Source: Laetmonice hystrix
Taxonomy: Eukaryota
Assembly (NCBI GenBank): GCA_965235115.1
Contig: OZ249436.1
Coordinates: forward strand, 3,226,001 to 3,290,000
Reading direction: 5' to 3'
Length of the DNA: 64,000 nucleotides
Shown here piece after piece: positions 1 through 60,949 of the stretch. Position 1 is the first letter of the stretch. Each line of letters opens with the position of its first letter. Below the pieces are notes generated by a model, which did no database searches, was not told where the DNA came from, and saw only the letters and a list, made by a program, of their open reading frames with translations. The translations under genes were made by a program, and so were the position numbers.

Positions 1-26
1 CGGAGGAAGTTCTTACGTGTGAACAG
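1..26 (+). CDS. ZSWIM8: ZSWIM8 exon, 3' end only (EEVLTCEQ)
   Basis: CAG|gtaagg donor; phase 0 join to ILMWWF matches the ZSWIM8 segment as I recall it (LTxEQIxxWW). Confidence 0.8.
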
Positions 27-3000: not shown

Positions 3001-6000
3001 TCTTATATAAGGAACTTTATGATGTTTCTATTCTGAACTAGTCTTGTGATAGTGCTAAGGCAAGAGTACAAAAATAGAAAGAAAATGATGAATAATTTCA
3101 AAACATGTGAAGCTCCTCACGTTGGAACATTATAGACAGACCTGTAGGATAATTCAGATATAAAAATATGTTAATGTGATATGTGAATGATTACAAAAAG
3201 CGACTCGTCATGTTGTTGCAGGTCAAACTTGCCCATCAAGAGTCCGAGCTGGCTGCACTCCTCAAGAGAATCCCTCTAGGTCTCGCCGAGCTCAACGTTA
3301 TACGGGACAGGGCGGAGCAGCTCCGCAGTGGCAAGTTAAAGTCTCGGGGTGAAGCACTACTGCCTCTGACATTGGCCAGTTTTATATTTGACTCTCTTTG
3401 TTTACCAAGTGAGTATACTTTTCTATGTAACAAGAAATAATTATGCTAAAAATATTACAACTTGGAGTGAAGCAGATCTCCTTACATTATGAAACATACA
3501 CATCTGTATAAGATCTTACATTATGAAACATACAAGTCTGTATAAGATCTTACATTATGAAACATACACATCTGTATAAGATCTTACATTATGAAACATA
3601 CAAGTCTGTATAAGATCTTACATTATGAAACATACAAGTCTGTATAAGATCTTACTTTATGAAACATACAAGTCTGTATAAGATCTTACATTATGAAACA
3701 TACAAGTCTGTATAAGATCTTACTTTATGAAACATGCAAGTCTGTATAAGATCTTACATTATGAAACATACAAGTCTGTATAAGATATCATCAAGAATAT
3801 AAGTGAGCAGTTTATTTGGGTATTTGCAGGACATGCAATATATTATAAAAAGTTATAAGTTAAATCAATTTGGTATTGTTTCAGTTATGCCCATCAATGG
3901 ACAGAATACACGATCCTCGAGTCGTTCCCCGCCGGTCGCTACCCGGGTAGCAGCTGATGAAAAACTTGGCTTTGAAGCTGCTGTAGCTGCTTTGGGTAAG
4001 AATAACTGATCCCTTAATGAAATATCGTGATAACATCTCATTATACGTCAACTCGTGCTAGTCACGTGTTAATGTTAACTTAGAAATTGTAAGTTAGTCT
4101 GACGAAGGTAGAGTTGACATCAACTCGTGCTAGTCACATGTTAATGTTAACTTAGAAACTGTAAGTTAGTCTGACGAAGGTAGAGTTGACATCAACTCGT
4201 GCTAGTCACGTGTCAATGTTAACTTAGAAATTGTAAGTTAGTCTGACGAAGGTAGAGTTGACATCAACTCGTGCTAGTCACGTGTCAATGTTAACTTAGA
4301 AATTGTAAGTTAGTCTGACGAAGGTAGAGTTGACATCAACTCGTGCTAGTCACATGTTAATGTTAACTTAGAAACTGTAAGTTAGTCTGACGAAGGTAGA
4401 GTTGACATCAACTCGTCCTAGTCGCGTGTTAATGTTAACTTAGAAACTGTAAGTTAGTCTGACGAAGGTAGAGTTAAACTGAAAGGTTGACTTTCATGTA
4501 GTTATGAAATGATTTGACCATCCAGGACTGAAGGCGAACGTGTCTGAGGCCGAACATCCACTGCTGTGTGAGGGGACTCGACGACAGCGAGGTGACCTGG
4601 CCATCACAATGTTAGTCTATTACAAGGACGACCAGGTCAAACTGAGCAAGGTACAACTGAACTCGTCTTCAAACACCAGTCATTCACTGCCACCAGTCAA
4701 TATCTAGACACATGTAGACCTTTTTTTATATGTTTTAAAACTAGTTTAGTCTTCAGTTTGTAAGGGACTGAATGTAACTACATCAGTTTAGACATTGATT
4801 CCCAGTAAAACACTCAGGTTTGAAATGTGTTTCTTTCTTAGATAATGGACAAGTTATTAGACAAAGCAATCCACCAGCTCTACAAGGCTCCATCCCTCAC
4901 CACCTACCTCTCAGCCAGTCAGACTGCCTCGGCTAAACTCGCAGCGAGTCGGCAACAGATGTCGCAACGACCACCTGTCAGTACAGCTGCAGCCGGCGGT
5001 GACGGTGGCGCACCCCAGCGGCAGGACCAGAACAAGGCCCCAAACTCTGGATTTGAAAGTGACGACAGCATGGGTACCAAGGATGACGGCAGCAGGGGTG
5101 CGTCATCAGTTGCTACGGTAACAACAAGTGCTGGTGACACTCATGTTTCCACGGCAGCAGTGGAATCTTCTCCGACATGGCAGGAACCTCTGGAGGAAGT
5201 GACGGAGAGCGGGACCCATAGTCTGGACTACCTAAACCTGGAGCAAAACTTCTCGTCGATGAGTCTCCAGGCCGGAGGAGGCGCTCGACCCAAGACAAGA
5301 TTATTAAATAGGTACAGCAGGTGGGTAGGGGGAGGGTCGAGCCGTGCTATATGTCACTTCACAGGCCAGCCGCGATAAGTAAATGGTAGAAAATAGTGTT
5401 TGGATTGTGAGGTATACGGATTAAAGAAGCACCGGTTAACGAGGTCTGACTGTACATATATGTAAATTGTAATTAGTTTAGCTGCCACGTTTAACAGCTC
5501 ACCCTGAATTATTTTTTCAGTGATTATCTTTGTGTGTTACAGTAAAGACACACACAGCTCACCCTGAATTATTTTTTCAGTGATTATCTTTGTGTGTTAC
5601 AGTAAAGACACACACAGCTCACCCTGAATTATTTTTTCAGTGATTATCTTTGTATGTTACAGTAAAGACACAGACAGCTCACCCTGAATTATTTTTTCAG
5701 TGATTATCTTTGTGTGTTACAGTAAAGACACAGACAGCTCACCCTGAATTATTTTTTCAGTGATTATCTTTGTGTGTTACAGTAAAGACACAGACAGCTC
5801 ACCCTGAATTATTTTTTCAGTGATTATCTTTGTGTGTTACAGTAAAGACACAGACAGCTCACCCTGAATTATTTTTTCAGTGATTATCTTTGTGTGTTAC
5901 AGTAAAGACACAGACAGCTCACCCTGAATTATTTTTTCAGTGATTATCTTTGTGTGTTACAGTAAAGACACAGACAGCTCACCCTGAATTATTTTTTCAG

Positions 6001-9000
6001 TGATTATCTTTGTGTGTTACAGTAAAGACACACACAGCTCACCCTGAATTATTTTTTCAATGATTATCTTTGTGTGTTACAGTAAAGACACAGACAGCTC
6101 ACCCTGAATTATTTTTTCAATGATTATCTTTGTGTGTTACAGTAAAGACACAGACAGTTCAGCCCTGGAGGAGGAGGGAGACCCAACCGACTACAAAGCC
6201 TGGGAGGCCAAATTCAGATGTGCTAATCTCAAGTCCAACAAAAAACACTCAGTTGGTGTGTATTGTGGTAATTATTTTTTGTTGTTGTTAATTAGAGTTT
6301 ATTTCATTATTTCACCGTAATATCATCTCTACGGAAAACAAAAAAAAAAACAATTGTGGTTTTGCAAAATTATGGGAAAGAGTCTGAAGCATAGAAGCTT
6401 ATATGACCATTACATTCTTAACATCCTCTAACAAACTGGCTTGATCATAGATATTTGATCAGCTTGCACATACCTGCCAACTCTTCCAATCGGAAAGTTT
6501 TGATTTCTGCTATAGAAAGAAAGGAAATCTTTTATGTGGTTTGTTACATGTGCTTTTCTTAATACCGTACTTTTATAACATATTATACCATAATATTATA
6601 TATTGTAAATATAACAATTTCAACTTCGAAGGCTGGCAATAGCCCTTCCAATATTAAACCCATAGAAATTTGTCACAAAAGTTCCTGACATGCCATTCAT
6701 CCACAGGCATGGCAGCTATCGACAGCAGTGCCCCAGAAACCACATCGAGTGACAACTCGCCCACATTAATCCGGCGTAACTGGGCCAAACACCAGGGACC
6801 TGGCAGTGACAGCGGCAGCTCGGGCAAGAGCTCCGACTCTCTCGGCTCATCAAGTTCCGGAGATAAAGGAGTGGCAGCCAAGTGCAGGGATAACGAAAGG
6901 TTAGTGCTTGTGTTGTTAACAGAATAAAATATCTCATACATTCTTCTCAGAGAAAATGGTGAAACCGTAAAGATTTACTTGTCAGCATTAGTTTCTGGTG
7001 ACGAAAGATAACCAAACAAGTGGAAACGTGACGGGAGATGTGATTCTCTAAATCTCTAGATGGCAGTAGCAGTGCGTGTCCTCCAAGGCTGTTCACCAGA
7101 GTTTTCTAAGTTATAGCTGTGGCCGTAACTGTTACGGTTAGACATTTATATGGGCAAGAATCTGACCAGAACATAGGTATTAGTTTAATATCCCATGCAG
7201 TAGAAACTTCAGTTGAAGTCATGAAACAAAACTCAACTTGATCTTTCAGTCCACCTTGTGTATACGGGGCTGCACGTTTTGCACCCCACCTGGTGGTCGA
7301 CTCAAGAAGCTCGACACCTAATATCAAAGGTCCAAGGTACGTTGTTAATGTGACTGTTTGGCGTATTGTAGGTAATAAATACAGCTGGGGGAAGGGGAAT
7401 ATAAACTTATCAGAGAAACTTAGAATCTGCAAATTACATTCAATGAATCTATTTCATTTTAGAGATTTCAGTTTCTAACACACTTCAGTTGTAAAACTAA
7501 AACACTAAATTTTTCTCATTTCTGTTTTTCTACAGATACAAGGGTAAAAATCGAATAATGCCAACTGTACCCAACATGCCAAGCGAGGCTTCAGCCCACT
7601 TCATGTTTGAGCTGGCCAAGACGTTGCTAAACAAAGCAGGAGGAAACAGTTCAACATCATTGTTCACCCAGCCTGCTGCCAACACCACACACAACGGTCC
7701 GCACCGTAACCTACACCTGTGCGCCTTCCAGGTCGGACTGTACGCTCTCGGACTCCACAACTGTGTCAGTCCCAACTGGCTGTCACGGACCTACAGCTCA
7801 CATGTATCGTGGATTACAGGTTTGTGGACAGTGACTGATAGTATGATCTTAAAACTTGTTCTCACCACAAATTACTTACAGCGTAGTGGCGAAAGACCAC
7901 CAGAAAAATAGGAGGGGGGTTGAGGGGCCACTAAGGCCACCGACCGGGTCCAGGCGCAGATCCCTGGTGAGCAAGGTTTGATAAATTAGAGAGTAAACCG
8001 TCGACATTTTACCAGTATGCCAGCGAGTTCTGTTGTATTTAAAAAGATATTACTGCTTTTACAAACTGGATAACTCAGTAGTTGTTGCCTGAAGTGTACT
8101 TGTTGACATAAAAAGAATGCTCAGGTTACAAGAGTTTTGTTTGGAAGAACTGTTCCACCCTGTGTTAAAAACACTGATTTTACCATTTCAGGCCAGGCGA
8201 TGGAGATTGGTAGTGCAGCCATCAATAATCTCATCGATACATGGGAGGGACACCTGACCCCGCCAGAGGTCGCCTCGTTAGCTGACCGCGCCTCACGAGG
8301 GCGTGATCCTAACATGGTGCGTGCAGCGGCTGAGTTAGCCTTATCATGTCTGCCACATGCTCACGCTCTCAACCCAAACGAAATCCAGCGAGCTTTGATC
8401 CAGTGTAAGGAGCAGAGCCGGGAGATGTTAGAGCGAGCCTGTCTGGCTGTGGAGAGTGCCGCCAAGGGTGGCGGAGTTTATCCTGAGGTGTTGTTTGACG
8501 TCGCCAAGAGGTGGTATGAGTTATACGAGGAGGCCATGCTCGGTCATGCAGCGCCGTCTAGTGCTGCGATGGCTGCGGTGGTGACCCAGGCGCAGGCAAT
8601 GCCTCCAGCGCTGGTCCCTGTCAATCTGGGCGCGGCTCAGCAACTGGTTGTAGAAAACAACAACAGTCCGCCTGTGATGCAGCTGGTACCGTGCCAGCAG
8701 ATCGGAGGCTCCTCCGCAGCAGCTGCTGTAGCAGTGACTGTCGGCCAGCAGGGGCAAGTCCAAGCACAGCAGGTAACAGCTGCTGCAGTTCCTGTTCCAC
8801 AGATGCAGTACAACTTGCCACCGCCCCCTGGTGCCCATCAGATCGCTCACCATCAGTACATCACGCCGTACTCGTACGTTCAGCAGGTCCCAGCCAACTT
8901 TGGGCATCACTACTCCCAGCCCCACATCCCCTTACAAACTCATTCCATACATCCCTCATACCTCGCCACTTACCCCTACCAAAATCAAACTGCATTCAGT

Positions 9001-17426: not shown

Positions 17427-17881
17427 ATTAAACACACACCACATTAGTTTGACATAACCTTGGCAGGATCAACAACATACCTTGCTCTCTAAACGGTCAA
17501 GTTGATTTATTAAACACACACAACATTAAAACTAAGTTTGACATAACCTTGGCAGGATCAACAGCATACCTAATATTGCTCTCTAAAAGGTCAAGTTGAT
17601 TTATTAAACACACACCACATTAAAACTAAGTTTGACATAACCTTGGCAGGATCAACAACATACCTAATATTGCTCTCTAAAAGGTCCAAGTTGATTTATT
17701 AAACACACACCACATTAAAGCTAAGTTTGACATAACCTTGGCAGGATCAACAACATACCTTGCTCTCTAAACGGTCAAGTTGATTTATTAAACACACACC
17801 ACATTAAAGCTAAGTTTGACATAACCTTGGCAGGATCAACAACATACCTAATATTGCTCTCTAAAAGGTCCAAGTTGATTT
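17427..17881. repeat. About 82-95-bp tandem array, 5 copies, intergenic
   Basis: unit tattaaacacacaccacatt...ggatcaacaacatacct...aagttgatt. Confidence 0.9.
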
Positions 17882-20800: not shown

Positions 20801-21348
20801 GATGCTATGGAGATGGTGGAGGACAGACTACGTGTGCTGGAGGCCTAGATCCAGTAAGGGGCGGTCCATTTGATACGGAGGGGCCTATGGTAGGATAGAT
20901 AGGACTTACTTCCCTGAATCCAAATTTACACTGAAGTCGATTTTGATGAAAGTTGGACTTGCTTCCTTTTGTCATTGCACGGCAGTATAGTGTTATATTC
21001 GGCTCTACAAGTCTGGCCACAATAACAGTATGAGTCTAATTCTCCAGTCAATGACGTATCGCGCCACTTCTATAATAGGCCTACCAGGTCCGCTTTTCCT
21101 ACTGTGGGCCCCTTTCTAAAGTCGGACAAGATTACGCCATAAAAATCGCAGTCTATTTTAGTATTTCGCTTCGGGGTTCTGCAATCGGTGGTTAATGCAT
21201 GCCATTGGAAGAATGAACTATAGGACATATTTGATATAACCCCCTCCCCCTTACCTTCTCCTCTTAACCGAGGACCCCACCCCTCCCCCACCCCAACCTC
21301 ACCCCACCCCATCCCACCGGGCCCCCACCCTCACCCCACCCCTCCTTG

Positions 21349-22105: not shown

Positions 22106-22152
22106 ATGGCCGTGTCTTCCACGGATGTCATCAAGTCCGTCTCAAAGAAACT
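22106..22152 (+). CDS. PLAT-ANK gene, putative first coding exon (MAVSSTDVIKSVSKKL)
   Basis: ccacgATGg start context; ACT|gtgagt donor; phase fits next exon. Confidence 0.55.
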
Positions 22153-52100: not shown

Positions 52101-55100
52101 TCATACTTACCCCCTCCTGTCCTCCACTCAGTACCACACACATTGCCATACCGGTGAGAGTCATACTCACCCCCTCCTGTCCCCCACTGAGTACCACACA
52201 CATTGCCATACCGGTGAGAGTCATACTTACCCCCTCCTGTCCTCCACTCAGTACCACACACATTGCCATACCGGTGAGAGTCATACTTACCCCCTCCTGT
52301 CCTCCACTGAGTACCACACACATTGCCATACCGGTGAGAGTCATACTCACCCCCTCCTGTCCCCCACTGAGTACCACACACATTGCCATACCGGTGAGAG
52401 TCATACTTACCCCCCTGTCCTCCACTCAGTACCACACACATGGCCATACCGGTGAGAGTCATACTTACCCCCTCCTGTCCTCCACTCAGTACCACACACA
52501 TTGCCATACCGGTGAGAGTCATACGCACCCCCTCCTGTCCCCCACTGAGTACCACACACATTGCCATACCGGTGAGAGTCATACTTACCCCCCCTGTCCT
52601 CCACTCAGTACCACACACATTGCCATACCGGTGAGAGTCATACTTACCCCCTCCTGTCCTTCACTCAGTACCACACACATTGCCATACCGGTGAGAGTCA
52701 TACTCACCCCCTCCTGTCCTCCACTCAGTGCCACACACATTGCCATACCGGTGAGAGTCATACTCACCCCCTCCTGTCCTCCACTCAGTACCACACACAT
52801 TGCCATACCGGTGAGAGTCATACTTACCCCCTCCTGTCCCCCACTCAGTGCCACACACATTGCCATACCGGTGAGAGTCATACTCACCCCCTCCTGTCCT
52901 CCACTCAGTGCCACACACATTGCCATACCGGTGAGAGTCATACTCACCCCCTCCTGTCCTCCACTCAGTACCACACACATTGCCATACCGGTGAGAGTCA
53001 TACTTACCCCCTCCTGTCCCCCACTCAGTGCCACACACATTGCCATACCGGTGAGAGTCATACTCACCCCATCCTGTCCTCCACTCAGTGCCACAGACGA
53101 GCTGGGCTGGGCTCCCGTCCATGTAGCAGCGTCCTATGGTCACGTGGACGTCATCAAGTGGTTAGCTGTGAGTAGTGCCAACCTGGACGCCCAGACACCT
53201 ACCGGCTACTCTCCCATGCACCTGGCCGCCATGCAGGGTCACACCAACGGCATGATCGTGAGTGGCGCCCCCTATTGTCTCTGATTGACTTCTGTCAGGA
53301 CAGAATAAGATCAAGATGTTTTGTCACTGAACTGAAATGGCCGACGAGAAAAGATATATTTCCCAATGAAACGGGACACATTATTATACCTGAAAGTTTT
53401 TTTTTGAATAAATAATTTAGAATTCGCTGCCCTGGCTGATGACTTTGGTATTTTATCCTCAGGTGTTGAATGCTATGGGAGCCAAACTGAACGCCATGTC
53501 AGTAGAACACCAGTCTGCGCTCCACGTGGCCGCAAAGGGGTAAGAAAAGAAATCAAATATCTTTGAAGTTTTTACTTTCCCTTTGATCTGTGAATCGCAT
53601 GATTCGCTAATAATCGTAGAATGACTTATGAAGGCGCGGCGTAGATTTTATTGATTTTTTAAAATTTAAAAATGGCCTTGTATTTGTCAGAGGTTACTTG
53701 GAGAGTGTGAAGTGGTTGGTTGCTAACCGGTGTTCCCTAGAGACAGCCGACAACATGGGACGGCGGCCGGTAGACCTGGCTGAGGAGCACAACCAACAAG
53801 CTGTCCATGACTTCCTCAAACTTTGTGCTAAGGAACAGGTGAAAAATCCGGACGGAAGCTTCGCAATGATGAGGACAGACAGCAGGAGAAGGTGAGTTTG
53901 TCTCATTGATAAACCCACCTGTACAAGTTATCTCTGGAGGGACAGGTAATTACTGTGGGGGTCGTCTCATTGATAAACCCACCTGTCTAAGGTATCTCTG
54001 GAGGGACAGGTAATTACTGTGGGGGTCGTCTCATTGATTAACCCACCTGTCTAAGGTATCTCTGGAGGGACTGGTAATTACTGTGGGGGTCGTCTCATTG
54101 ATTAACCCACCTGTACAAGGCATCTCTGGAGGGACTGGTAATTACTGTGGGGGTCGTCTCATTGATAAACCCACCTGTCTAAGGTATGTCTGGAGGGACT
54201 GGTAATTACTGTAGGGTTGTCCCATTGATTAACCCACCTGTCCAAGGTATCTCTGGAGGGACTGGTAATTACAAGTGTACAATTGTACTGCAATGTCCCT
54301 GTTCTACCAGTTGTGGTCCGTGTATGACATGTGGTCCGTGTATGACACGTGGTCCGTGTATGACACGTGGTCCCTGTATGACATGTGGTCCGTGTATGAC
54401 ATGTACGATGTCCGTGTTCTGCCTGTTGTGGTCCGTGTATGACATGTGGTCCGTGTATGACACGTGGTCCCTGTATGACATGTGGTCCCTGTGTGACATG
54501 TGGTCCCTGTATGACACGTGGTCCCTGTATGACATGTGGTCCCTGTATGACATGTGGTCCCTGTATGACATGTGGTCCGTGTATGACACGTGGTCCCTGT
54601 ATGACATGTGGTTCCTGTATGACATGTGGTCCCTGTATGACATGTGGTCCGTGTATGACACGTGGTCCCTGTATGACATGTGGTTCCTGTATGACATGTG
54701 GTCCCTGTATGACATGTGGTCCGTGTATGACACGTGGTCCCTGTATGACATGTGGTCCCTGTGTGACATGTGGTCCCTGTGTGACATGTGGTCCCTGTAT
54801 GACATGTGGTCCTTGTATGACATGTGGTCCCTGTATGACACGTGGTCCCTGTATGACATGTGGTCCGTGTATGACACGTGGTCCGTGTATGACACGTGGT
54901 CCCTGTATGACACGTGGTCCCTGTATGACATGTGGTCCGTGTATGACATGTGGTCCGTGTATGACATGTGGTCCCTGTATGACACGTGGTCCGTGTATGA
55001 CATGTGGTCCGTGTATGACATGTGGTCCGTGTATGACATGTGGTCCGTGTATGACATGTGGTCCGTGTATGACATGTGGTCCGTGTATGACATGTGGTCC

Positions 55101-58100
55101 GTGTATGACATGTGGTCCGTGTATGACATGTGGTCCGTGTATGACACGTGGTCCGTGTATGACATGTGGTCCCTGTATGACACGTGGTCCCTGTATGACA
55201 CGTGGTCCCTGTATGACACGTGGTCCGTGTATGACATGTGGTCCGTGTATGACATGTGGTCCCTGTATGACATGTGGTCCGTGTATGACATGTGGTCCCT
55301 GTATGACACGTGGTCCGTGTATGACATGTGGTCCGTGTATGACATGTGGTCCGTGTATGACATGTGGTCCGTGTATGACATGTGGTCCCTGTATGACATG
55401 TGGTCCCTGTATGCCACGTGGTCCGTGTATGACATGTGGTCCCTGTATGACACGTGGTCCCTGTATGACACGTGGTCCCTGTATGACACGTGGTCCGTGT
55501 ATGACATGTGGTCCGTGTATGACACGTGGTCCCTGTATGACATGTGGTCCCTGTATGACATGAGAACATTTTTTGTTACCAGTCTCGAGAGTACGGGGAA
55601 GAAATCAACGACAAGTAATTCTGACGAGGACAGCGAGAGCAACGACGAGTCCGACGATAGCGACCCCACGTGGCGTGACGTAAGCATTGCCGTCAGAGGC
55701 GCCCCCTATGTGTGGTTTAATTCCACATCAAGCCCCGTTCCTCCAGGGACCTTTTATTTTCTGAAAACAAGAAGACAATAAGTGAACTGTGTTGTAAATT
55801 AAATATTCATGGCGGCATGGTATAGGTTTGTTATCCTTCAGAGATTCCCTAGAGGTGTCGGGATAACGTACAATTACTTTAGAATGTATTATAACATTAG
55901 CGTGTAGATAAACCATAGACTGCATGTAGTATGTGGGGTAAGTATAACAGTTGTAGATAGGCCTATATAACTTTACGTTTATCATTTACTCTCAGGCTCG
56001 GCCTGACAGTATAACAGTTGTAGATAGGCCTATATAACTTTACGTTTATCTTTTACTCTCAGGCTCGGCCTGACAGTATAACAGTTGTAGATAGGCCTAT
56101 ATAACTTTACATTTATCTTTTACTCTCAGGCTCGGCCTGACAGTATAACAGTTGTAGATGGCCTATATAACTTTACGTTTATCTTTTACTCTCAGGCTCG
56201 GCCTGACAGTATAACAGTTGTAGATAGGCCTATATAACTTTACGTTTATCTTTTACTCTCAGGCTCGGCCTGACAGTATAACAGTTGTAGATAGGCCTAT
56301 ATAACTTTACGTTTATCATTTACTCTCAGGCTCGGCCTGACAGTATAACAGTTGTAGATAGGCCTATATAACTTTACGTTTATCATTTACTCTCAGGCTC
56401 GGCCAACAGTCCCGCATGGTGACAAGGAAAGTATTAGAAAGTCGGACGAGGATACGGACTCGAGAAAAACGTCCAAACATGACGAAGAATTGATGGTATG
56501 TTATCATTTTGATAAGAAATATGAAATTTTAAACTGCAAATAGAATATAAAATTGTCTGTAGAAGTGTCAGTGAGTCACTTGTCAAACAAATGCAAATAT
56601 TTATTAAGGAAATTTACTTTTTCTAACTGTCCTTTCTCACTAACATTTCTGAGAGAATATTATTTTAAAATTCAATCCAGGTCTTAGATTTCACTTGTCG
56701 TTTTTGTTTTAGTCTTGATTACTGGTATCTACGTAGATGGTCAGTCACACAAAAGTAACACGACCTAACTAGGACTCTCTATTAGTTCATAGTGATGTTT
56801 AACATTGGGAGTTAGCAACCCACTAAACATTTGTTTCCGACGGGAGATGCAAACTTTAGTCTCGCATTGAGATAGACTCCTATCATTATGTATTTACCAG
56901 CAACGGTTTTTAAACAACTGTGCCGTCTACGATAAACCGTAAAGTACGAAGTTTACTCAGTAGAAGCTGGTACACCATGCATGACAGTCATGATTGTTCT
57001 CTAGTTGTGTGTCATCTTAAACGATTGAATGACCCACTTAGTATGATAAAGGCAATGGCTTCAGGAATCCCTCAATAAAAATATTTGTTAAAGACCCCTT
57101 CAAACCCTCTGGGGGTAAATAGGAATCACCTCACCCTCTGGGGGTAAACACGAACCACCTCACCCTCCGTGGGTAAATAGGAACCACCTCACCCTCCGCG
57201 GGTAAATAGGAACCACCTAACCCTCCGTGGGTAAATAGGAACCACCTCACCCTCCGGGGGTAAATTCAGATTGATGCGATGCTGAGAGTGCACCCACCTT
57301 AGTATATATGTCAGCATGTACCACCCCTAAGTAAATCTATCCCGTTTTCCTGTTTGTGACAGCACGACTGCACCCCATTCTATGTTCACTGAGATCGTTT
57401 TGTACACTGGCAAGGTTTTGTGAACTCCATTGTTGATACGTGAATAAAGTGATTTAGGGTTTACGTTATACAAGTGGTTGATACGTGAATACAGTGATTT
57501 AGGGTTTACGTTATACAAGTGGTTGATACGTGAATACAGTGATTTAGGGTTTACGTTATCCAAGTGGTTGATACGTGAATACAGTGATTTAGGGTTTACG
57601 TTATACAAGTGGTTGATACGTGAATACAGTGATTTAGGGTTTACGTTATCCAAGTGGTTGATACATGAATACAGTGATTTAGGGTTTACGTTATCCAAGT
57701 GGTTGATACATGAATACAGTGATTTAGGGTTTACGTTATCCAAGTGGTTGATACATGAATACAGTGATTTAGGGTTTACGTTAACTATACAAGTGGTTGA
57801 TACGTGAATACAGTGATTTAGGGTTTACGTTATACAAGTGGTTGATACGTGAATACAGTGATTTAGGGTTTACGTTATACAAGTGGTTGATACGTGAATA
57901 CAGTGATTTAGGGTTTACGTTATACAAGTGGTTGATACGTGAATACAGTGATTTAGGGTTTACGTTATACAAGTGGTTGATACATGAATACAGTGATTTA
58001 GGGTTTACGTTATACAAGTGTATTTGTTCTCGTGTCATGCCGTGTGGCAACCCCGCCCCTCTTGCCCCCCCCCCCCCTCCCCGCATGGGCATGATCTTGG

Positions 58101-60949
58101 CTTTGCCCTGCAACTGCCATATTTGACGGCCTACCCCTCCCATGCAGTGCAGGTACTGGATCTGATTTTGACCTGCAGCTGCCATATTTGACGGCCTACC
58201 CCCCCCCCCCATGCAGTGCAGATACTGGATCTGATTTTGACCTGCAGCTGCCATATTTGACGGCCTACCCCCCCCCCCCCATGCAGTGCAGGCACTGGAT
58301 CTGGTTTTGACCTGCAACTGCCATATTTGACGGCCTACCCCTCCCATGCAGTGCAGATACTGGATCTGATTTTGACCTGCAGCTGCCATATTTGACGGCC
58401 TACCCCTCCCATGCAGTGCAGGTATCGGATCTGGCTTTGACATCCCAAATTGGGAATATCTACCGGATCCTATTATATATAATATATACATGTATGCGTG
58501 TTTGTAATACGTGTTTAAATTTTATATATATATAAAGTTAGAAAATTACACATTACAGCGATTTATACACATTTTCTCCCAATATTTAGCACGACAATCG
58601 TGTCATAATAATTCTTAATTGATTCTGAATAACTATTTCATGACCCCCCGTAAAAATTGTCTGTACTTTACCGCCACAAGGCTGAGGACCGACTTAAAAC
58701 TTCACTATCAGTGATAGATTTTGAGATGATTAAAATGGTCTGGAGGTAGGAATAATTATGTGGGGCGTATCCACATGCCCCCTCCTTTCCAGAATTCCTG
58801 ATTCTGCCCCTGTAATGACAGACCATTGATTATTTATCGATGTTTTCCTGATTCCGCCCCTGTATTGACAGACCATTGATTATTTATCGATAATTTCCTG
58901 ATTCCGCCCCTGTATTGACAGACCATTGATTATTTATCGATGTTTTCCTGATTCCGCCCCTGTATTGACAGACCATTGATTATTTATCGATGTTTTCCTG
59001 ATTCCGCCCCTGTATTGACAGACCATTGATTATTTATCGGTGTTTTCCTGATTCCGCCCCTGTATTGACAGACCATTCATTATTTATCGATGTTTTCCTG
59101 ATTCCGCCCCTGTATTGACAGACCATTCATTATTTATCGATGTTTTCCTGATTCCGCCCCTGTATTGACAGACCATTCATTATTTATCGATGTTTTCCTG
59201 ATTCCGCCCCTGTATTGAAGACCATTGATTATTTATCGATGTTTTCCTGATTCTGCCCCAGTATTGTGCAGACTATTGATTATTTATCGATAATTTCCTG
59301 ATTCTGCCCCAGTATTGTGCAGACTATTGATTATTTATCGATAATTTCCTGATTCTGCCCCTGTATTGTGCAGACTATTGATTATTTATCGATGTTTTCC
59401 TGATTCTGCCCCAGTATTGACAGACTATTGATTATTTATCGATGTTTTCCTGATTCCGCCCCAGTATTGACAGACCCATGATTATTTATCGATGTTTTCC
59501 TGATTCCGCCCCTGTATTGACAGACCATTGATTATTTATCGATGTTTTCCTGATTCCGCCCCTGTATTGACAGACCATTGATTATTTATTGATGTTTTCC
59601 TGATTCCGCCCCTGTATTGACAGACCATTCATTATTTATCGATGTTTTCCTGATTCCGCCCCTGTATTGTGCAGACTATTGATTATTTATCAATGTTTTC
59701 CTGATTCCGCCTCTGTATTGACAGACCATTGATTATTTATCGATGTTTTCCTGATTCCGCCCCAGTATTGACAGACCATTGATTGTTTATCGATAATTTC
59801 CTGATTCCGCCCCTGTATTGACAGACCATTGATTATTTATCGATAATTTCCTGATTCCGCCCCTGTATTGACAGACCATTGATTATTTATCGATAATTTC
59901 CTGATTCCGCCCCTGTATTGACAGACCATTGATTATTTATCGATAATTTCCTGATTCCGCCCCTGTATTGACAGACCATTGATTATAATTTATCGATGTT
60001 TTCCTGATTCCGCCCCTGTATTGACAGACCATTGATTATTTATCGATGTTTTCCTGATTCCGCCCCTGTATTGACAGACCATTGATTATTTATCGATGTT
60101 TTCCTGATTCCGCCCCAGTATTGTGCAGACTATTGATTATTTATCGATGTTTTCCTGATTCCGCCCCTGTATTGACAGACTATTGATTATTTATCGATGT
60201 TTTCCTGATTCCGCCCCAGTATTGTGCAGACTAATGATTTTTTATCGATGTTTTCCTGATTCCGCCTCTGTATTGACAGACTATTGATTATTTATCGATG
60301 TTTTCCTGATTCCGCCCCTGTATTGACAGACTATTGATTATTTATCGATGTTTTCCTAATTCCGCCTCTGTATTGACAGACTATTGATTATTTATCGATG
60401 TTTTCCTGATTCCGCCCCTGTATTGACAGACCATTGATTATTTATCGATGTTTTCCTGATTCCGCCCCTGTATTGACAGACCATTGATTATTTATCGATG
60501 TTTTCCTGATTCCGCCCCAGTATTGACAGACCATTGATTATTTATCGATGTTTTCCTGATTCCGCCCCTGTATTGACAGACCATTGATTATTTATCGATG
60601 TTTTCCTGATTCTGCCCAGTATTGACAGACCATTGATTATTTATCGATAATTTCCTGATTCTGCCCCAGTATTGTGCAGACTATTAATTATTTATCGATG
60701 TTTTCCTGATTCCGCCCCTGTATTGTGCAGACTATTGATTATTTATCGATGTTTTCCTGATTTCGCCCCAGTATTGACAGACCATTGATTATTTATCGAT
60801 AATTTCCTGATTCCGCCCCTGTATTGACAGACTATTGATTATTTATCGGTGTTTTCCAGGAGAAGCGAGCTTTGTTTGCCGAGCAGCAGAGGCGGATGTC
60901 TGAGAAGAATGTCACCTTCCTAGACAGTATTCGAAATGAAGCAGTTTAG
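22106..60949 (+). CDS. Uncharacterised PLAT/LH2 + ankyrin-repeat protein, spliced, about 1039 aa, 23 predicted coding exons
   Basis: Exons 22106-22152, 24096-24186, 24766-24861, 32830-32973, 36301-36413, 36978-37086, 37513-37659, 39596-39714, 41211-41382, 44460-44588, 45041-45223, 46030-46108, 46289-46441, 46827-47043, 48322-48602, 49229-49371, 49723-49886, 53089-53257, 53463-53539, 53691-53891, 55583-55679, 56397-56495, 60860-60949 sum to 3120 nt, ATG to TAG, with compatible phases and no internal stop. 5' exons are less certain than the PLAT and ankyrin exons. Confidence 0.75.
23085..23235. mobile_element. PIF/Harbinger-like MITE, CAG flanks
   Basis: gggcctgtcttactaaggt...accttcgtgagacgggccc inverted ends; termini resemble 43679-43827. 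Confidence 0.7.
23784..23946. mobile_element. Probable MITE remnant
   Basis: ctgggccgtagcctgg...ccaggctatacggccctg inverted ends, poly-G/poly-C; no clear TSD. Confidence 0.5.
24096..24186 (+). CDS. PLAT-ANK gene exon (KYYFDIKRLEDG...QVKS)
   Basis: ttttcag|G, TCT|gtaagt. Confidence 0.65.
24766..24861 (+). CDS. PLAT-ANK gene exon (RPTLMYDGLHDRPLKHYFSPKEVRVSLTQFKT)
   Basis: ctttcag|AGA, ACG|gtaaga; resembles the ERICH3/FSIP2 YxxLxDxxLxxYF motif. Confidence 0.65.
25215..26168. repeat. 28-bp tandem array, about 34 copies, intronic
   Basis: unit tgatctatagcctgaggggcagtgtcac. Confidence 0.95.
26734..26850. repeat. 20-bp tandem array, 5-6 copies
   Basis: unit gtgatgtaacaggtgtagag. Confidence 0.9.
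26947..27189. repeat. About 84-bp tandem array, 3 copies, overlapping a MITE terminus
   Basis: unit taggcctacatgacagg...ctaggtacagggttt. Confidence 0.9.
27182..27855. mobile_element. MITE with cagggtt...aaccctg ends and gtcatggaa subterminal repeats
   Basis: short inverted ends flanked by TA; carries a nested element. Confidence 0.7.
27444..27676. mobile_element. Nested MITE with 5-bp GCAAC direct flanks
   Basis: gcaac|cagtggcggatcc...ggatccgccgctg|gcaac. Confidence 0.78.
29738..30244. repeat. 99/102-bp tandem array, 5 copies
   Basis: unit gggattacggtactccctgctgtag...cctgggaagatg. Confidence 0.92.
31394..31521. mobile_element. PIF/Harbinger-like MITE, CTG/CAG flanks
   Basis: gggtgttt...ggaccgtccgaccagcgacgga pairs with tccgtcgccggttggacggtcc...aaccacccc. 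Confidence 0.62.
31698..32823. repeat. 72/65-bp tandem array, about 16 copies, ending 6 nt before an exon
   Basis: unit tgtaaccatagttaccg...gatatgttgggtgttggg, then acgcag|GAC. Confidence 0.95.
32830..32973 (+). CDS. PLAT-ANK gene exon (DEKILKNK...SLPAK)
   Basis: acgcag|GAC, AAG|gtaaac; unique island between two arrays. Confidence 0.65.
32986..33129. repeat. 11-bp tandem array, about 13 copies, each with CACGTG
   Basis: unit catcacgtgac, starting about 12 nt after donor 32974. Confidence 0.93.
33173..34881. repeat. 66-bp GC-rich tandem array, about 26 copies
   Basis: unit ggcatgaggccagcagacagtctg...ccctgacaggggt; two 60-bp deletion copies. Confidence 0.96.
35225..35472. mobile_element. Probable PIF/Harbinger-like MITE
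   Basis: gccccgcttcagaaaggct...agcctttctgaaacctggcc imperfect inverted ends; CAG/CTG flanks. Confidence 0.5.
36301..36413 (+). CDS. PLAT-ANK gene exon (PSVLPDGY...PRKRR)
   Basis: ttcatag|CCT, AAG|gtaaga. Confidence 0.65.
36978..37086 (+). CDS. PLAT-ANK gene exon (GARGGHYTLR...LLVAT)
   Basis: gtacag|T, ACG|gtaaat. Confidence 0.65.
37513..37659 (+). CDS. PLAT-ANK gene exon (ETIDVNK...RRVLVR)
   Basis: ctttcag|GAG, AGG|gtgagt. Confidence 0.7.
37673..39592. repeat. 42-bp tandem array filling a whole intron: about 36 homogeneous plus about 10 diverged copies
   Basis: unit gtgttctaagtgtggtggtgtgagttttacatgatcttggag, switching near 39190 to gtgttctaatagtggcagtatgattttgacacaatc... Confidence 0.95.
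39596..39714 (+). CDS. PLAT-ANK gene exon (KSGESEDD...PGWL)
   Basis: tttatag|AAA, CAG|gtaaga. Confidence 0.7.
39805..40025. mobile_element. PIF/Harbinger-like MITE, about 57-bp TIRs, CAG TSD
   Basis: gggtgggttgcactaacggtcctacgggttaggactaaatttaggaccagtcctac and its near-perfect reverse complement. Confidence 0.85.
40152..41100. repeat. 30-36-bp tandem array, about 28 copies
   Basis: unit cccctgatcgcgttgggttgtaagattct(ccccac). Confidence 0.93.
41211..41382 (+). CDS. PLAT-ANK gene exon (KELQRS...SQSPDPPT)
   Basis: ttacag|G; donor ACT|gtaagt is the first copy of the 42/44-bp array. Confidence 0.72.
41351..44190. repeat. 42/44-bp tandem array, about 60 copies, spanning a donor; MITE inserted
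   Basis: unit gtgtctcgtcacagtccccagacccgccaact|gtaagt(gt)ttgt. Confidence 0.97.
43679..43827. mobile_element. PIF/Harbinger-like MITE inserted in the 42/44-bp array
   Basis: ggccccgtcttactaagccggcgac...gtcgccggcttagtaagacgggccc splits one unit at its CAG. Confidence 0.88.
44460..44588 (+). CDS. PLAT-ANK gene exon (VKTGWG...RNYEP)
   Basis: ttgcag|GTA, CCC|gtgagt. Confidence 0.72.
44675..45060. repeat. 54-bp tandem array, about 7 copies, spanning the PLAT exon acceptor
   Basis: unit cccagctataagcaccagtttcgttaccttgcag|tctgagtgtatcctgtttga. Confidence 0.93.
45041..45223 (+). CDS. PLAT/LH2 domain exon 1 (YEVQVFTGDRLGAGTKADI...FQRGQ)
   Basis: Canonical PLAT start YxVxVxTGDxxxAGTxAxI; acceptor is the last copy of the 54-bp array. 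Confidence 0.9.
45389..46005. repeat. 50-bp tandem array, about 12 copies, ending about 24 nt before an acceptor
   Basis: unit gagcctagattttcatcatccacattgtgtccgtagaaatgttataaaca. Confidence 0.95.
46030..46108 (+). CDS. PLAT/LH2 domain exon 2 (EDIFDLDTYFVGPIRKITIGHD)
   Basis: ttccag|GAG, TTG|gtgagt; GxIxKIxIGHD motif. Confidence 0.9.
46289..46441 (+). CDS. PLAT/LH2 domain exon 3 (GWYLERVEV...PCERWLS)
   Basis: atttag|GT, CAG|gttggt; WYLExVxV and PCxRWL motifs. Confidence 0.9.
46827..47043 (+). CDS. PLAT-ANK gene exon (PPQASEPD...STSSYS)
   Basis: ctgcag|TT; donor CAG|gtaaat is the first copy of the 64-bp array. Confidence 0.75.
47014..48042. repeat. 64-bp tandem array, 16 copies, spanning a donor
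   Basis: unit tacacctccagtacsagctcctacagcag|gtaatgacagaaatctcagccactggctggggaac. Confidence 0.97.
48322..48602 (+). CDS. PLAT-ANK gene acidic exon (SSEEETDHED...REEDE)
   Basis: ttacag|T, AAG|gtcagt. Confidence 0.75.
48630..48971. mobile_element. Tc1/mariner-type fold-back MITE, about 140-bp TIRs, TA TSD
   Basis: 48630-48771 is a near-perfect reverse complement of 48832-48971; TA on both sides. Confidence 0.88.
49229..49371 (+). CDS. PLAT-ANK gene acidic exon (TAHLEKK...TPAPR)
   Basis: gtttag|AC, CGA|gtaaga. Confidence 0.75.
49723..49886 (+). CDS. PLAT-ANK gene exon with first ankyrin repeat (NIHEAAKQGDLSRVK)
   Basis: tcctag|TTG, AGA|gtgagt. Confidence 0.85.
50086..50232. mobile_element. 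TTAA-flanked MITE (Kolobok-like termini)
   Basis: ttaa|agtgacactgtcgtcc...ggacgacagtgccgct|ttaa. Confidence 0.7.
50350..53098. repeat. 60-bp tandem array, about 46 copies, spanning an ankyrin exon acceptor
   Basis: unit taccggtgagagtcatactyacccccctcctgtcctccactcag|trccacasacattgcca. Confidence 0.97.
53089..53257 (+). CDS. Ankyrin-repeat exon (GWAPVHVAASYGH...GYSPMHLAAMQGH)
   Basis: Ankyrin consensus; acceptor is the last copy of the 60-bp array; ATC|gtgagt. Confidence 0.9.
53463..53539 (+). CDS. Ankyrin-repeat exon (VLNAMGAKLN...SALHVAAK)
   Basis: cctcag|GTG, GGG|gtaaga. Confidence 0.9.
53691..53891 (+). CDS. Ankyrin-repeat exon (GYLESVKWLV...GRRPVDLA...)
   Basis: tgtcag|A, AAG|gtgagt. 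Confidence 0.9.
53900..54272. repeat. 64-bp tandem array, about 6 copies, starting 8 nt into an intron
   Basis: unit gtctcattgataaacccacctgt...gggacaggtaattactgtgggggtc. Confidence 0.92.
54312..55562. repeat. 18-bp tandem array, about 68 copies, ending 20 nt before an acceptor
   Basis: unit tgtggtccstgtatgaca. Confidence 0.96.
55583..55679 (+). CDS. PLAT-ANK gene exon (LESTGKK...PTWRD)
   Basis: taccag|T, GAC|gtaagc. Confidence 0.75.
55941..56410. repeat. 67-bp tandem array, 7 copies, spanning an acceptor
   Basis: unit agtataacagttgtagatagg...tttactctcag|gctcggcctgac. Confidence 0.96.
56397..56495 (+). CDS. PLAT-ANK gene exon (ARPTVPHG...DEELM)
   Basis: acceptor is the last copy of the 67-bp array; ATG|gtatgt. 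Confidence 0.75.
57104..57265. repeat. About 29-bp tandem array, 5-6 copies
   Basis: unit accctccgtgggtaaataggaaccacctc. Confidence 0.85.
57432..58020. repeat. 45-bp tandem array, about 13 copies
   Basis: unit gttgatacgtgaatacagtgatttagggtttacgttatacaagtg. Confidence 0.95.
58107..58441. repeat. About 65-70-bp tandem array, about 5 copies, variable poly-C
   Basis: unit cctgcagctgccatatttgacggcctaccc...catgcagtgcaggtactggatctgattttga. Confidence 0.9.
58795..60857. repeat. 50-bp tandem array, about 41 copies, ending at the last acceptor
   Basis: unit ttcctgattccgcccctgtattgacagaccattgattatttatcgatgtt; last copy reads ttttccag|GAG. Confidence 0.96.
60860..60949 (+). CDS. PLAT-ANK gene last coding exon (EKRALFAEQQ...NEAV*)
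   Basis: tttccag|GAG directly after the 50-bp array; TAG stop. Confidence 0.72.
   Translation, partial: EKRALFAEQQRRMSEKNVTFLDSIRNEAV

What the first reader, a model, noticed from the sequence alone, without database searches (positions are those of the whole stretch)
1..60949. Splice-junction amplification: many unrelated minisatellites built from each gene's own splice sites
Seen: of about 29 sequence-unrelated arrays, 8 have a unit made of exon end plus adjacent intron (donors: 7-361, 9457-9919, 41351-44190, 47014-48042; acceptors: 5494-6161, 44675-45060, 50350-53098, 55941-56410). Eight more start or stop within about 25 nt of a splice site (10475, 31698, 32986, 37673, 45389, 53900, 54312, 58795). 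Both genes show it, while 12-25 kb is nearly array-free. The gene-preserving site is always the exon-proximal copy, flanked by about 4-60 near-identical decoys. Inference: a local amplification process (slippage or rolling-circle copying of small circles, possibly linked to transcription or splicing) acts in gene bodies, and the spliceosome copes with massive splice-site redundancy. I know of no named system for this but cannot confirm novelty. Caveat: short introns plus selection against exon-internal arrays would produce some of this pattern by chance.
Basis: partly seen in the sequence, partly recalled or inferred. Interest (0 to 1): 0.88.

Follow-up and report, generated by a model that had tools for sequence, protein, structure and literature searches.

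The report
Splice sites copied inside intron minisatellites
In two neighbouring genes of a spiralian invertebrate, short tandem DNA repeats have swollen the introns and nine of them happen to contain a copy of a splice site, a known oddity (called 'mirages' in amphioxus) that here looks mostly like what many repeats landing in very short introns would give by chance.

Summary
TRF finds 29 arrays of 100 nt or more covering 41.6% of the window. They are mutually unrelated, and the four tested match only their own locus. Exon models validated as uninterrupted ORFs collinear with orthologues (ZSWIM8, 21 exons; a spiralian PLAT+ankyrin gene, 24 exons, 22.1-60.9 kb) confirm all 8 claimed junction arrays. 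These are 4 donors and 4 acceptors, with 4-59 matched decoys that nearly all keep GT or AG. A ninth lies upstream of the window. All 8 'near' arrays end 2-24 nt from a splice site.

The kind is known: amphioxus 'mirage' minisatellites and human F7/IFI6/CBS/LMNB2/PDGF intron VNTRs. Placing collapsed units at random within their own introns predicts 6.7 junction arrays against 9 seen (P=0.19). Ancestral introns were about 150-600 nt and units 30-70 nt. Only the 'near' class shows a nominal excess (8 vs 3.65, P=0.019), in gene 2 alone and with a post hoc threshold.

Introns here carry about ten times more arrays per kb than the spacer between the genes. Eight kinase-gene stretches elsewhere carry none. 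No RNA could be laid, so use of the exon-proximal copy is inferred. Best reading: ordinary minisatellite turnover in a repeat-dense domain. A splice-linked process is not needed but not excluded.

The parts
1..11889 (+). 3' part of ZSWIM8 (gene 1). Exons in the window: 1-26, 616-1851, 2070-2208, 2654-2829, 3222-3408, 3885-3995, 4526-4650, 4842-5320, 6143-6267, 6707-6899, 7536-7819, 8192-9463, 10049-10226, 11673-11889 (stop).
   Evidence: Pfam PF25572 and PF21055; tblastn of four homologues; splice refinement; joined ORF of 1,943 codons, 60-63% identical end to end.
7..361 (+). Donor-junction array, 70 nt x 5.1. Unit = 20 nt of exon end + 50 nt of intron. Authentic CAG|GTAAGG; 4 decoys CAG|GTAGGG.
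3481..3786 (+). Internal intron array, 34 nt x 9, 72 nt from the donor.
4048..4475 (+). Internal intron array, 72 nt x 5.9, 50 nt from either splice site.
5494..6167 (+). Acceptor-junction array, 60 nt x 11.2. It runs 25 nt into the exon that starts at 6143. 10 of 10 decoys keep ...TTACAG|TAAAGA. Use of an upstream copy would meet a TGA in frame.
9457..9919 (+). Donor-junction array, 33 nt x 14.2. Unit = 7 nt of exon + 26 nt of intron. 12 of 13 decoys keep GT. The period is in frame and the frame stays open 461 nt past the donor.
10474..11655 (+). 39-nt array cluster (10474-10562 and 10646-11655, split by a 19-nt repeat). It ends 17 nt before the acceptor of the last ZSWIM8 exon.
11890..22105 (.). 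Intergenic spacer with one array of 100 nt or more (17446-17881).
   Evidence: No Pfam hit in 144 ORFs scanned across 12-41 kb and 56.4-64 kb, which include this spacer. 1 array vs 10.5 expected at the intronic rate.
22106..60949 (+). Gene 2, a PLAT + ankyrin-repeat protein of spiralians, 24 exons: 22106-22152, 24096-24186, 24766-24861, 31023-31097, 32830-32973, 36301-36413, 36978-37086, 37513-37659, 39596-39714, 41211-41382, 44460-44588, 45041-45223, 46030-46108, 46289-46441, 46827-47043, 48322-48602, 49229-49371, 49723-49886, 53089-53257, 53463-53539, 53691-53891, 55583-55679, 56397-56495, 60860-60949.
   Evidence: Pfam PLAT and Ank on exons. Orthologues from Capitella, Owenia and Biomphalaria found by exhaustive HMMER. 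Exon mapping. One ORF of 1,064 codons, all introns GT-AG. BLASTP collinear with P0257, E 2e-167.
25214..30243 (+). Four internal arrays in the 6.2-kb intron 3 of gene 2: 25214-26168, 26734-26849, 26941-27189, 29737-30243.
31698..32823 (+). 72 nt x 16 array ending 6 nt before the acceptor AG of exon 5 (32830).
   Evidence: Exon 5 rests on phase and on the collinear ORF.
32984..33128 (+). 11 nt x 13 array starting 10 nt after the donor of exon 5 (32974).
33175..34881 (+). Internal array, 66 nt x 26.
37673..39529 (+). 42 nt x 44 array starting 13 nt after the donor of exon 8 (37660). 34 GTGAGT motifs lie in the array. Diverged copies reach to about 6 nt from the acceptor of exon 9 (39595).
40152..41100 (+). 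Internal array, 34 nt x 29, 110 nt from the acceptor of exon 10.
41351..44196 (+). Donor-junction array, 42 nt x 67, with an 86-nt higher-order period. Unit = 32 nt of exon 10 end + 10 nt of intron. 58 of 59 matched decoys read ACT|GTAAGT. It is interrupted by unrelated sequence at about 43.7 kb.
44675..45060 (+). Acceptor-junction array, 54 nt x about 7. It runs 20 nt into PLAT exon 12 (45041). 6 of 6 decoys keep AG. The period is in frame and the frame is open.
45389..46005 (+). 50 nt x 12 array ending 24 nt before the acceptor of exon 13 (46030).
47015..48042 (+). Donor-junction array, 64 nt x 16. Unit = 29 nt of exon 15 end + 35 nt of intron. Authentic CAG|GTAAAT. 15 of 15 decoys keep GT (13 GTAATG, 2 GTAAAT). 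Use of a decoy would meet a stop.
50349..53095 (+). Acceptor-junction array, 60 nt x 46. It runs 7 nt into ankyrin exon 19 (53089). 45 of 45 decoys keep AG. The period is in frame and the frame is open through the whole array.
53900..54272 (+). 64 nt x 5.8 array starting 8 nt after the donor of exon 21 (53892).
54312..55562 (+). 18 nt x 69 array ending 20 nt before the acceptor of exon 22 (55583).
55941..56404 (+). Acceptor-junction array, 67 nt x 6.9, with a 200-nt higher-order period. It runs 8 nt into exon 23 (56397). 6 of 6 decoys keep AG.
57104..58441 (+). Three internal arrays in the last intron: 57104-57265, 57432-58020, 58102-58441.
58795..60857 (+). 50 nt x 41 array ending 2 nt before the acceptor AG of the last exon (60860). 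The polypyrimidine tract of the acceptor is array sequence. At the homologous place, 39 of 40 decoys read TTCCTG and only the last copy reads TTCCAG.
61981..63968 (.). 36 nt x 55 array about 1 kb downstream of the gene 2 stop codon, outside both gene models (3' UTR or intergenic).

Best explanation
These are ordinary DNA-level minisatellites. A short local segment of 11-99 nt (in-window arrays of 100 nt or more) is duplicated in tandem, then grows and is homogenised by replication slippage and unequal exchange. This happens in a chromosomal domain, and a genome, that is unusually rich in tandem repeats.

The two genes had compact introns of about 120-680 nt once the arrays are collapsed, and units are 30-70 nt. 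A sizeable share of arrays therefore captures a splice junction by chance.

A tandem duplication destroys nothing. It leaves the original exon-intron junction intact at the exon-proximal end. The extra sites lie inside the intron and are removed with it, provided the spliceosome takes the exon-proximal site, as was shown experimentally for repeated donors in human F7.

Shown here: the arrays, their local origin, the captured junctions, the intact decoys, the agreement of junction capture with random placement, and that only exon-proximal sites give orthologue-collinear ORFs.

Inferred: the growth mechanism and which site is used in vivo.
For: 1. Arrays are mutually unrelated and locus-specific.
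2. Copies are 93-100% identical to their consensus in most arrays; median TRF match is 95%.
3. Higher-order periods fit stepwise unequal exchange: 86 vs 42, 200 vs 67, 201 vs 99, 184 vs 94.
4. The 20 array-free introns have a median of 388 nt. The 23 array-hosting introns collapse to a median of 342 nt.
5. With random placement of each collapsed unit within its own intron, 6.66 junction arrays are expected and 9 seen (P=0.19). In ZSWIM8 alone it is 4 vs 2.69. In its upstream part outside the window it is 1 vs 0.45.
6. The junction sits anywhere in the unit, with an exon share of 0.12-0.76.
7. There is no sense-strand-specific excess of donor-like motifs in non-junction units: 14 sense and 9 antisense in 2.1 kb, against a background of 3.3 and 2.3 per kb.
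8. The genome is repeat-rich in general. Arrays cover 10.9% of 14 arbitrary 10-kb stretches, 36.6% of the 40 kb upstream and 41.6% of the window. A 1.7-kb-period satellite starts 2.9 kb past the window.
9. Both genes give full-length ORFs collinear with orthologues when exon-proximal sites are used.
10. Precedent: amphioxus mirages do not disturb splicing (PMC3087553 and PMC3902484, passages). In F7 the most upstream of identical donors is chosen (PMC1557585, abstract and passages).
Against: 1. Arrays that stop just short of a splice site are nominally in excess: 8 vs 3.65 (P=0.019), all of the excess in gene 2 (7 vs 2.26, P=0.003). Junction plus near is 17 vs 10.31 (P=0.0034). Under a gene-level null it is 17 vs 7.56 (P=0.0004).
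2. The intergenic spacer has 1 array against 10.5 expected at the intronic rate. This fits a link with transcription, though it is a single spacer.
3. One junction array sits in a 22-kb intron, where the chance for any one array is about 1%.
4. The tests are in-sample, on 49 arrays. A genome-wide test could not be run.
5. Which copy is spliced was not observed.
Confidence: 0.65

Rival explanations
1. Array birth or retention is truly biased towards exon-intron junctions or transcribed DNA. The bias would be either mutational, from transcription- or splicing-coupled damage and repair near splice sites, or selective. Array ends would then be anchored at splice sites more often than chance.
For: Near-class excess of 8 vs 3.65 (P=0.019). 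Junction plus near 17 vs 10.31 (P=0.0034; P=0.027 and 0.033 at thresholds of 10 and 50 nt). Gene-level null 17 vs 7.56 (P=0.0004), and the intergenic spacer has 1 vs 10.5 arrays. Five arrays end only 2-13 nt from a site. A kinase-gene intron elsewhere, of about 770 nt, is about 696 nt of 21-nt array.
Against: Junction overlap itself is not in excess (P=0.19). Gene 1 shows no near excess (1 vs 1.39). The threshold and the window were chosen after seeing the pattern. Collapsed lengths of multi-array introns probably overstate ancestral length, which makes the null too strict. Donor-like motifs show no sense-strand bias. Eight kinase-gene stretches with introns of 0.4-2.1 kb hold no array of 100 nt or more. 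Arrays abound in four arbitrary loci where 0 of 118 ORFs pass a Pfam cut-off.
Confidence: 0.2
2. The repeated splice sites are functional. They would tune splicing, for example as decoys that slow or buffer splice-site choice, as sources of in-frame alternative isoforms, or as intron-length regulators.
For: Three junction arrays have in-frame periods and open frames (33, 54 and 60 nt), so internal sites could add 11-, 18- or 20-residue repeats. Decoys are almost all intact.
Against: Orthologues have no such repeats at these places, and the alignment is collinear without them. The other junction arrays would give frameshifts or stops. Units are unrelated, and no feature is shared beyond the captured site. 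Young, near-identical copies are what neutral turnover gives.
Confidence: 0.06
3. The arrays, or their lengths, are assembly artefacts.
For: No independent reads could be laid. The three DNA-like runs that hold 59-67% of the sampled words come from the same sample as the best holder.
Against: Arrays are 0.1-2.8 kb with internal variant patterns, higher-order periods and unique flanks. Arrays of this class occur at 9 of 14 arbitrary loci.
Confidence: 0.03
4. Units were amplified from small circles, either eccDNA or reverse-transcribed circular or lariat RNA, by rolling-circle copying and were then reinserted at the source.
For: None specific. Copy identity is high.
Against: Units mix exon end and intron start, or intron end and exon start, which is no natural lariat or circRNA product. 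Array starts do not coincide with +1 of the intron. Higher-order periods and variant gradients point to many steps rather than one burst.
Confidence: 0.03

Closest known systems
Amphioxus 'mirage' minisatellites. Described for Adh3 (Canestro et al. 2002, cited in PMC3087553; the paper itself is not held), globins BflGb6 and BflGb9 (PMC3087553, abstract and section passages), and PGBD5 and TnC (PMC3902484, one passage).
   Same: Minisatellite-like tandem duplications whose unit spans an intron-exon boundary. Both 5' and 3' boundaries are affected. Most copies keep AG or GT. Each gene has its own unit of 10-160 bp. The gene still reads correctly through the authentic site.
   Different: Here the host is a spiralian (best matches annelid, nemertean and mollusc proteins), not a cephalochordate. 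The density is far higher: 9 junction arrays in two adjacent genes, with up to 67 copies. Regular splicing and length polymorphism, shown for mirages, were not observable here.
Human intron VNTRs whose first monomer spans the exon-intron boundary: F7 IVS7 (37 bp), IFI6/6-16 (25 pseudo-sites), CBS IVS13, LMNB2, PDGF (PMC1557585, abstract, introduction and results passages).
   Same: The authentic donor is followed by identical pseudo-donors inside the intron. The five donor arrays here (four in the window, one upstream) have that anatomy. The proposed working rule, that the most upstream donor wins, is taken from that work.
   Different: Four arrays here reiterate acceptors, which that paper does not treat. 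Copy numbers reach 46-67. No minigene or transcript data exist for this locus.
Intron gain by tandem duplication across an AG|GT proto-splice site. The Rogers model is discussed in PMC3087553. Cases are reported in potato (PMC4974935) and Drosophila (PMC2891723), of which I saw only the search listing and the start of the abstract.
   Same: A tandem duplication creates extra usable splice signals next to an exon.
   Different: No new intron is seen here. The duplications extend existing introns, and the gene models need no array-internal exon.
Introners and other transposon-borne splice sites (recalled; no call).
   Same: Repeated DNA that carries splice signals within genes.
   Different: Those are dispersed families with shared sequence. 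These units are unique to their locus.

Membership tests
Mirage-type boundary-spanning minisatellite | Head-to-tail tandem array of a short unit (tens of bp) inside a gene. | tested here: met
   TRF. The 29 arrays of 100 nt or more have periods of 11-99 nt (with higher-order 184 and 200) and 2.3-69 copies.
Mirage-type boundary-spanning minisatellite | The unit contains an exon end (or start) together with the adjacent intron sequence and its splice signal. | tested here: met
   Met for 8 arrays in the window and 1 upstream, on exon models validated. Not met for the other 40 of the 49 intronic arrays.
Mirage-type boundary-spanning minisatellite | Regular splicing is kept: the authentic, exon-proximal site is used. 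| not testable with these tools
   The one read-laying run returned nothing. Indirect support only: exon-proximal sites alone give ORFs collinear with orthologues.
Mirage-type boundary-spanning minisatellite | Copy-number instability or polymorphism between haplotypes or individuals. | not tested
   Only one assembly is held, and the listed runs are from one sample.
F7-type VNTR with reiterated 5' pseudo-sites | The first monomer spans the exon-intron boundary, so the donor is repeated downstream. | tested here: met
   Five donor arrays. Matched decoys with GT: 4/4, 12/13, 58/59, 15/15 and 10/10.
F7-type VNTR with reiterated 5' pseudo-sites | Only the most upstream functional donor is selected. 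| not testable with these tools
There are no transcript data for this window.
Dispersed mobile element carrying splice sites (introner-like) | Related copies at many loci. | tested here: not met
   Four of four arrays searched match only their own locus in the assembly. 5 of 1,275 array pairs share words.
Coding tandem repeat (exonic VNTR) | The repeats are translated as part of the protein. | tested here: not met
   No array lies wholly in an exon. Orthologues align collinearly without the repeats. Open frames through three arrays are compatible with chance for stop-free units.

The most novel reading that the evidence does not exclude
In this animal, tandem-array formation is coupled to transcription or splicing. 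Arrays arise about ten times more often in introns than in flanking intergenic DNA, and their ends are anchored at splice junctions. The nominal excess is 1.6-fold within introns and 2.2-fold across the genes. Under this reading, mirages would be the footprint of a germline mutational process that acts at exon-intron boundaries, not chance captures.
Probability: 0.17. Interest if true: 0.8.

Novelty: new member of a known kind. Interest (0 to 1): 0.4.

Why it matters
Tandemly reiterated splice sites are natural experiments on how the spliceosome chooses among identical sites. So far they are known from a handful of human genes and a few amphioxus genes. This locus shows the same thing in a spiralian, at a much higher density. 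Nine junctions in two adjacent genes are affected, with up to 59 matched intact donors and 45 intact acceptors in a row. Four of them are acceptor arrays, for which the selection rule is less well studied.

Ebner et al. 2010 call the mechanism that generates mirages 'unclear'. The analysis here suggests that for junction capture no special mechanism is needed: a high minisatellite birth rate plus compact introns is enough. It also isolates a smaller, testable residue, namely arrays ending just short of splice sites and array-poor intergenic DNA, that a genome-wide test in this repeat-rich genome could settle.

For annotation, such loci are a trap. My first ab initio model of gene 2 missed half of the gene.

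Tried and rejected
1. RNA evidence. The run search listed 4 runs of one sample and no RNA holder. Which copy is spliced therefore stays unobserved.

2. Word-based homologue search with the PLAT exon found nothing. The exhaustive HMMER search later found orthologues.

3. My first ab initio gene 2 model started at 41.1 kb with 11 exons. Under it, 3 of the 8 'near' claims had no supported exon and one (45389) lay 164 nt from a site, and the null test was skewed (5 vs 1.98, P=0.018). I rejected it after the orthologue mapping.

4. A Pfam scan of 144 non-array ORFs in 12-41 and 56.4-64 kb gave 0 hits. This wrongly suggested that 25-41 kb is intergenic: the N-terminal exons there are short and match no Pfam model.

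5. A strand test for donor-like motifs in non-junction units showed no sense-specific signal.

6. Periods that are multiples of 3: by my hand count, 16 of 31 in the window, 9 of 22 upstream and 8 of 28 elsewhere. No clear excess overall, so I did not pursue it.

7. Genome-wide sampling. Only 222 kb outside the window could be read.

8. Out-of-sample test on kinase genes. Eight stretches with introns of 0.4-2.1 kb hold no array of 100 nt or more. One 10-kb locus holds five arrays, one of which fills a 770-nt intron but ends 28 and 46 nt from the sites. That is too few for a test.

9. A Pfam scan of 118 ORFs in four arbitrary array-bearing loci found none over cut-off, so no exons could be placed there.

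10. The original mirage paper (PMC117041) is not held.

11. A look-up of earlier notes by words found none.

12. Ungapped extension of array ends changed almost nothing. The upstream junction array was recognised only by gapped inspection.
Full report
WHAT IS IN THE WINDOW. Tandem Repeats Finder reports 51 rows. After merging overlaps these are 40 arrays totalling 26,619 nt, or 41.6% of the 64 kb, and 29 of them are 100 nt or longer. Periods run from 11 to 99 nt (higher-order 184 and 200), copy numbers from 2.3 to 69, and the median TRF match is 95%.

The arrays are not a family. Among 51 arrays in 104 kb (window plus the 40 kb upstream), only 5 of 1,275 pairs share two or more 11-mers on either strand, and three of those pairs are pieces of one array. 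Four arrays searched against the whole 627-Mb assembly (47015, 50349, 41351, 5494) match only their own locus.

Several arrays have higher-order periods: 86 vs 42, 200 vs 67, 201 vs 99, 184 vs 94. Copies are mostly 93-100% identical to their consensus.

THE GENES. Gene 1 is ZSWIM8 (Pfam PF25572 and PF21055). Its best relatives are from Owenia, Lineus, Liolophura and Lingula at about 55% identity over the query exon, so the host is a spiralian with no close relative in the protein collection.

tblastn and splice refinement give 13 complete exons plus the last 26 nt of another in the window and 8 exons in the 40 kb upstream, the eighth being the one that runs on into the window. Joined, the 21 exons make one ORF of 1,943 codons, with GT/GC-AG at all 20 introns. 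It is 60-63% identical end to end to four homologues.

Gene 2 misled me at first. A word-based search with the PLAT exon found nothing, Pfam saw no domain in 144 ORFs of 12-41 and 56.4-64 kb, and I modelled a gene starting at 41.1 kb.

An exhaustive HMMER search with the 61-residue PLAT exon then gave single-PLAT proteins of 842-1,163 residues. These are PLAT + ankyrin proteins of Capitella, Owenia and Biomphalaria. Mapping them back gives 24 exons from 22106 to 60949, all GT-AG. They form one ORF of 1,064 codons that aligns in a single BLASTP segment with the Capitella protein (3-1062 vs 1-1011, 33% identity, E 2e-167).

The array-poor stretch is the intergenic spacer 11890-22105.

CHECKING THE CLAIMS. 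All eight 'unit = exon end plus intron' arrays are confirmed on these models. Exon shares of the unit and decoy counts are listed under parts. Matched decoys keep GT in 4/4, 12/13, 58/59 and 15/15 copies, and AG in 10/10, 6/6, 45/45 and 6/6.

A ninth junction array sits at the donor of the seventh ZSWIM8 exon, 22 kb upstream of the window. There, 10 matched decoys keep GT and other copies read GC.

All eight 'near' arrays end 2-24 nt from a splice site: 11655 (17 nt), 32823 (6), 32984 (10), 37673 (13), 46005 (24), 53900 (8), 55562 (20), 60857 (2). Two of them flank exon 5 of gene 2, which is supported by phase and by the collinear ORF rather than by strong local similarity.

In the 58795 array the acceptor's pyrimidine tract is array sequence. 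At the homologous place, 39 of 40 decoys read TTCCTG where the authentic copy reads TTCCAG.

IS IT MORE THAN CHANCE? The 43 introns of the two genes hold 49 arrays of 100 nt or more. The 20 array-free introns have a median of 388 nt. The 23 hosts are 452-22,157 nt long but collapse to a median of 342 nt when each array is reduced to one unit.

Results:
- Junction arrays: 6.66 expected, 9 seen (P=0.19).
- ZSWIM8 alone: 4 vs 2.69.
- Its out-of-window part: 1 vs 0.45.
- Gene 2: 5 vs 3.97.

The headline pattern is therefore what compact introns and 30-70-nt units give by chance. In addition, the junction sits anywhere in the unit (exon share 0.12-0.76), and donor-like 9-mers in non-junction units are raised about equally on both strands.

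What is nominally in excess is the class that stops just short of a site: 8 vs 3.65 (P=0.019). All of the excess is in gene 2 (7 vs 2.26, P=0.003), with none in gene 1 (1 vs 1.39). Junction plus near is 17 vs 10.31 (P=0.0034), or P=0.027 and 0.033 with thresholds of 10 and 50 nt. A gene-level null, with units placed over all introns, gives 17 vs 7.56 (P=0.0004).

Three cautions apply. The window was selected for this pattern among very many. The 25-nt threshold was set after seeing it. And collapsed lengths of multi-array introns probably overstate ancestral length, which makes the null too strict.

GENE BODIES OR DOMAIN? Introns of the two genes carry 1.07 arrays per collapsed kb. The 9.9-kb spacer carries one array against 10.5 expected (P=3e-4). 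That is one spacer.

Elsewhere the picture is mixed:
- Fourteen arbitrary 10-kb stretches hold 26 arrays (10.9% of the sequence), and 5 of the 14 hold none.
- In four array-bearing stretches, 0 of 118 ORFs pass a Pfam cut-off.
- Eight stretches of kinase genes with introns of 0.4-2.1 kb hold no array of 100 nt or more.
- One kinase locus holds five arrays, one of which fills about 696 of about 770 nt of an intron.
- The 40 kb upstream of the window is 36.6% arrays, and a satellite of 1,708-nt period begins 2.9 kb past the window.

The locus thus lies in a repeat-dense domain of a repeat-rich genome. More of the genome could not be read.

HOW IT MOST LIKELY WORKS. A tandem duplication adds a copy and destroys nothing. 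The exon keeps its original junction at the exon-proximal end of the array, and the further copies lie inside the intron.

The genes give full-length, orthologue-collinear ORFs with the exon-proximal sites. Use of internal copies would have different effects in different arrays:
- A stop or a frameshift in the 7-361, 41351, 47015 and 5494 arrays.
- In-frame insertions of 11, 18 or 20 residues per unit in the 9457, 44675 and 50349 arrays. Orthologues lack these insertions.

That the exon-proximal site is chosen in vivo is inferred. It rests on the F7 work, in which the most upstream of identical donors is selected and the pseudo-sites are functional but silent (PMC1557585, abstract and passages). 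It also rests on RT-PCR statements for amphioxus mirages (PMC3087553 and PMC3902484, passages), and on an earlier, unchecked note of this scan on LIG1 in the same genome. No transcript data could be obtained here.

COMPARISON WITH WHAT IS KNOWN. [quoted passage not shown] They are described in amphioxus Adh3, globins, PGBD5 and TnC, at both 5' and 3' boundaries, with the generating mechanism called unclear (PMC3087553, PMC3902484).

Human F7, IFI6 (6-16), CBS, LMNB2 and PDGF carry the donor version (PMC1557585).

In three full-text searches I found no report from a spiralian and no genome-wide test of whether such boundary-spanning arrays exceed chance. That is a statement about those searches only.

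This locus is therefore a new member of a known kind. It is notable for its host, for its density (9 junctions in two adjacent genes) and for the four acceptor arrays.

VERDICT.
- Observation: confirmed.
- Interpretation: partly supported. Local amplification, redundancy and local intron bias hold. Junction targeting and rolling circles are not supported, and 'unnamed' is wrong.
- Best explanation: ordinary minisatellite turnover in compact introns of a repeat-dense domain (0.65).
- Main rival: a real exon-proximal or transcription-linked bias (0.2).
- Interest: 0.4.

Noticed in passing
L010:2900-10000 and L011:1-10000 (about 66.9-84 kb in window coordinates): A large satellite with a period of 1,708 nt (two sub-repeats of about 853 nt), 98-100% identical between neighbouring copies, starts 2.9 kb past the window and runs to the end of the fetched DNA. 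Similar long-period repeats occur in L024 (866 nt) and L020 (3,405 nt).
   Followed up: partly
window 10594-10641 and 12365-12422: The same 19-nt unit is repeated at two places 1.7 kb apart. The two places bracket the 39-nt array and the last ZSWIM8 exon. This may be an old segmental duplication or the ends of an element.
   Followed up: no
window 58795-60859: At the place homologous to the authentic acceptor, 39 of 40 array copies read TTCCTG and only the exon-proximal copy reads TTCCAG. Either the boundary of the original duplication fell by chance 2 nt before the AG, or AG-bearing decoys were lost.
   Followed up: partly
window 9457-9919, 44675-45060, 50349-53095: Three junction arrays have periods that are multiples of three (33, 54, 60 nt) and frames that stay open through the array into or out of the exon. 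Use of an internal site would add 11-, 18- or 20-residue repeats in frame.
   Followed up: partly
window 22106-60949: Gene 2 is a conserved but uncharacterised spiralian protein with a conserved N-terminal region, one PLAT domain, acidic and serine-rich linkers, ankyrin repeats and a conserved C-terminal ...FLDSIR... motif. Orthologues are a Capitella hypothetical protein, Owenia PLAT domain proteins and a Biomphalaria LOC annotated by some sources as 'ankyrin-3'.
   Followed up: partly
window 43680-43800: The 42-nt donor array is interrupted by about 120-300 nt of unrelated or strongly diverged sequence (copies 55-61 fall to 48-79% identity) and then resumes.
   Followed up: no
L026:5913-6682 (minus strand): A protein-kinase gene at 50.8 Mb of the same chromosome has an intron of about 770 nt, of which about 696 nt is a 21-nt array with variants. 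The ancestral intron would be about 95 nt. Four further arrays lie in the same 10 kb.
   Followed up: partly
L008:2680-6299 (window -17320 to -13701): The 22-kb seventh intron of ZSWIM8 holds 13 arrays, including a 3.6-kb array of a 118-nt unit. Array sequence makes up about 10 kb of that intron.
   Followed up: no
window 37673-39595: The 42-nt units carry a GTGAGT motif in 34 places, and the stretch before the array (exon end plus donor) resembles the end of the unit. This may be a tenth, degraded donor-junction array.
   Followed up: partly
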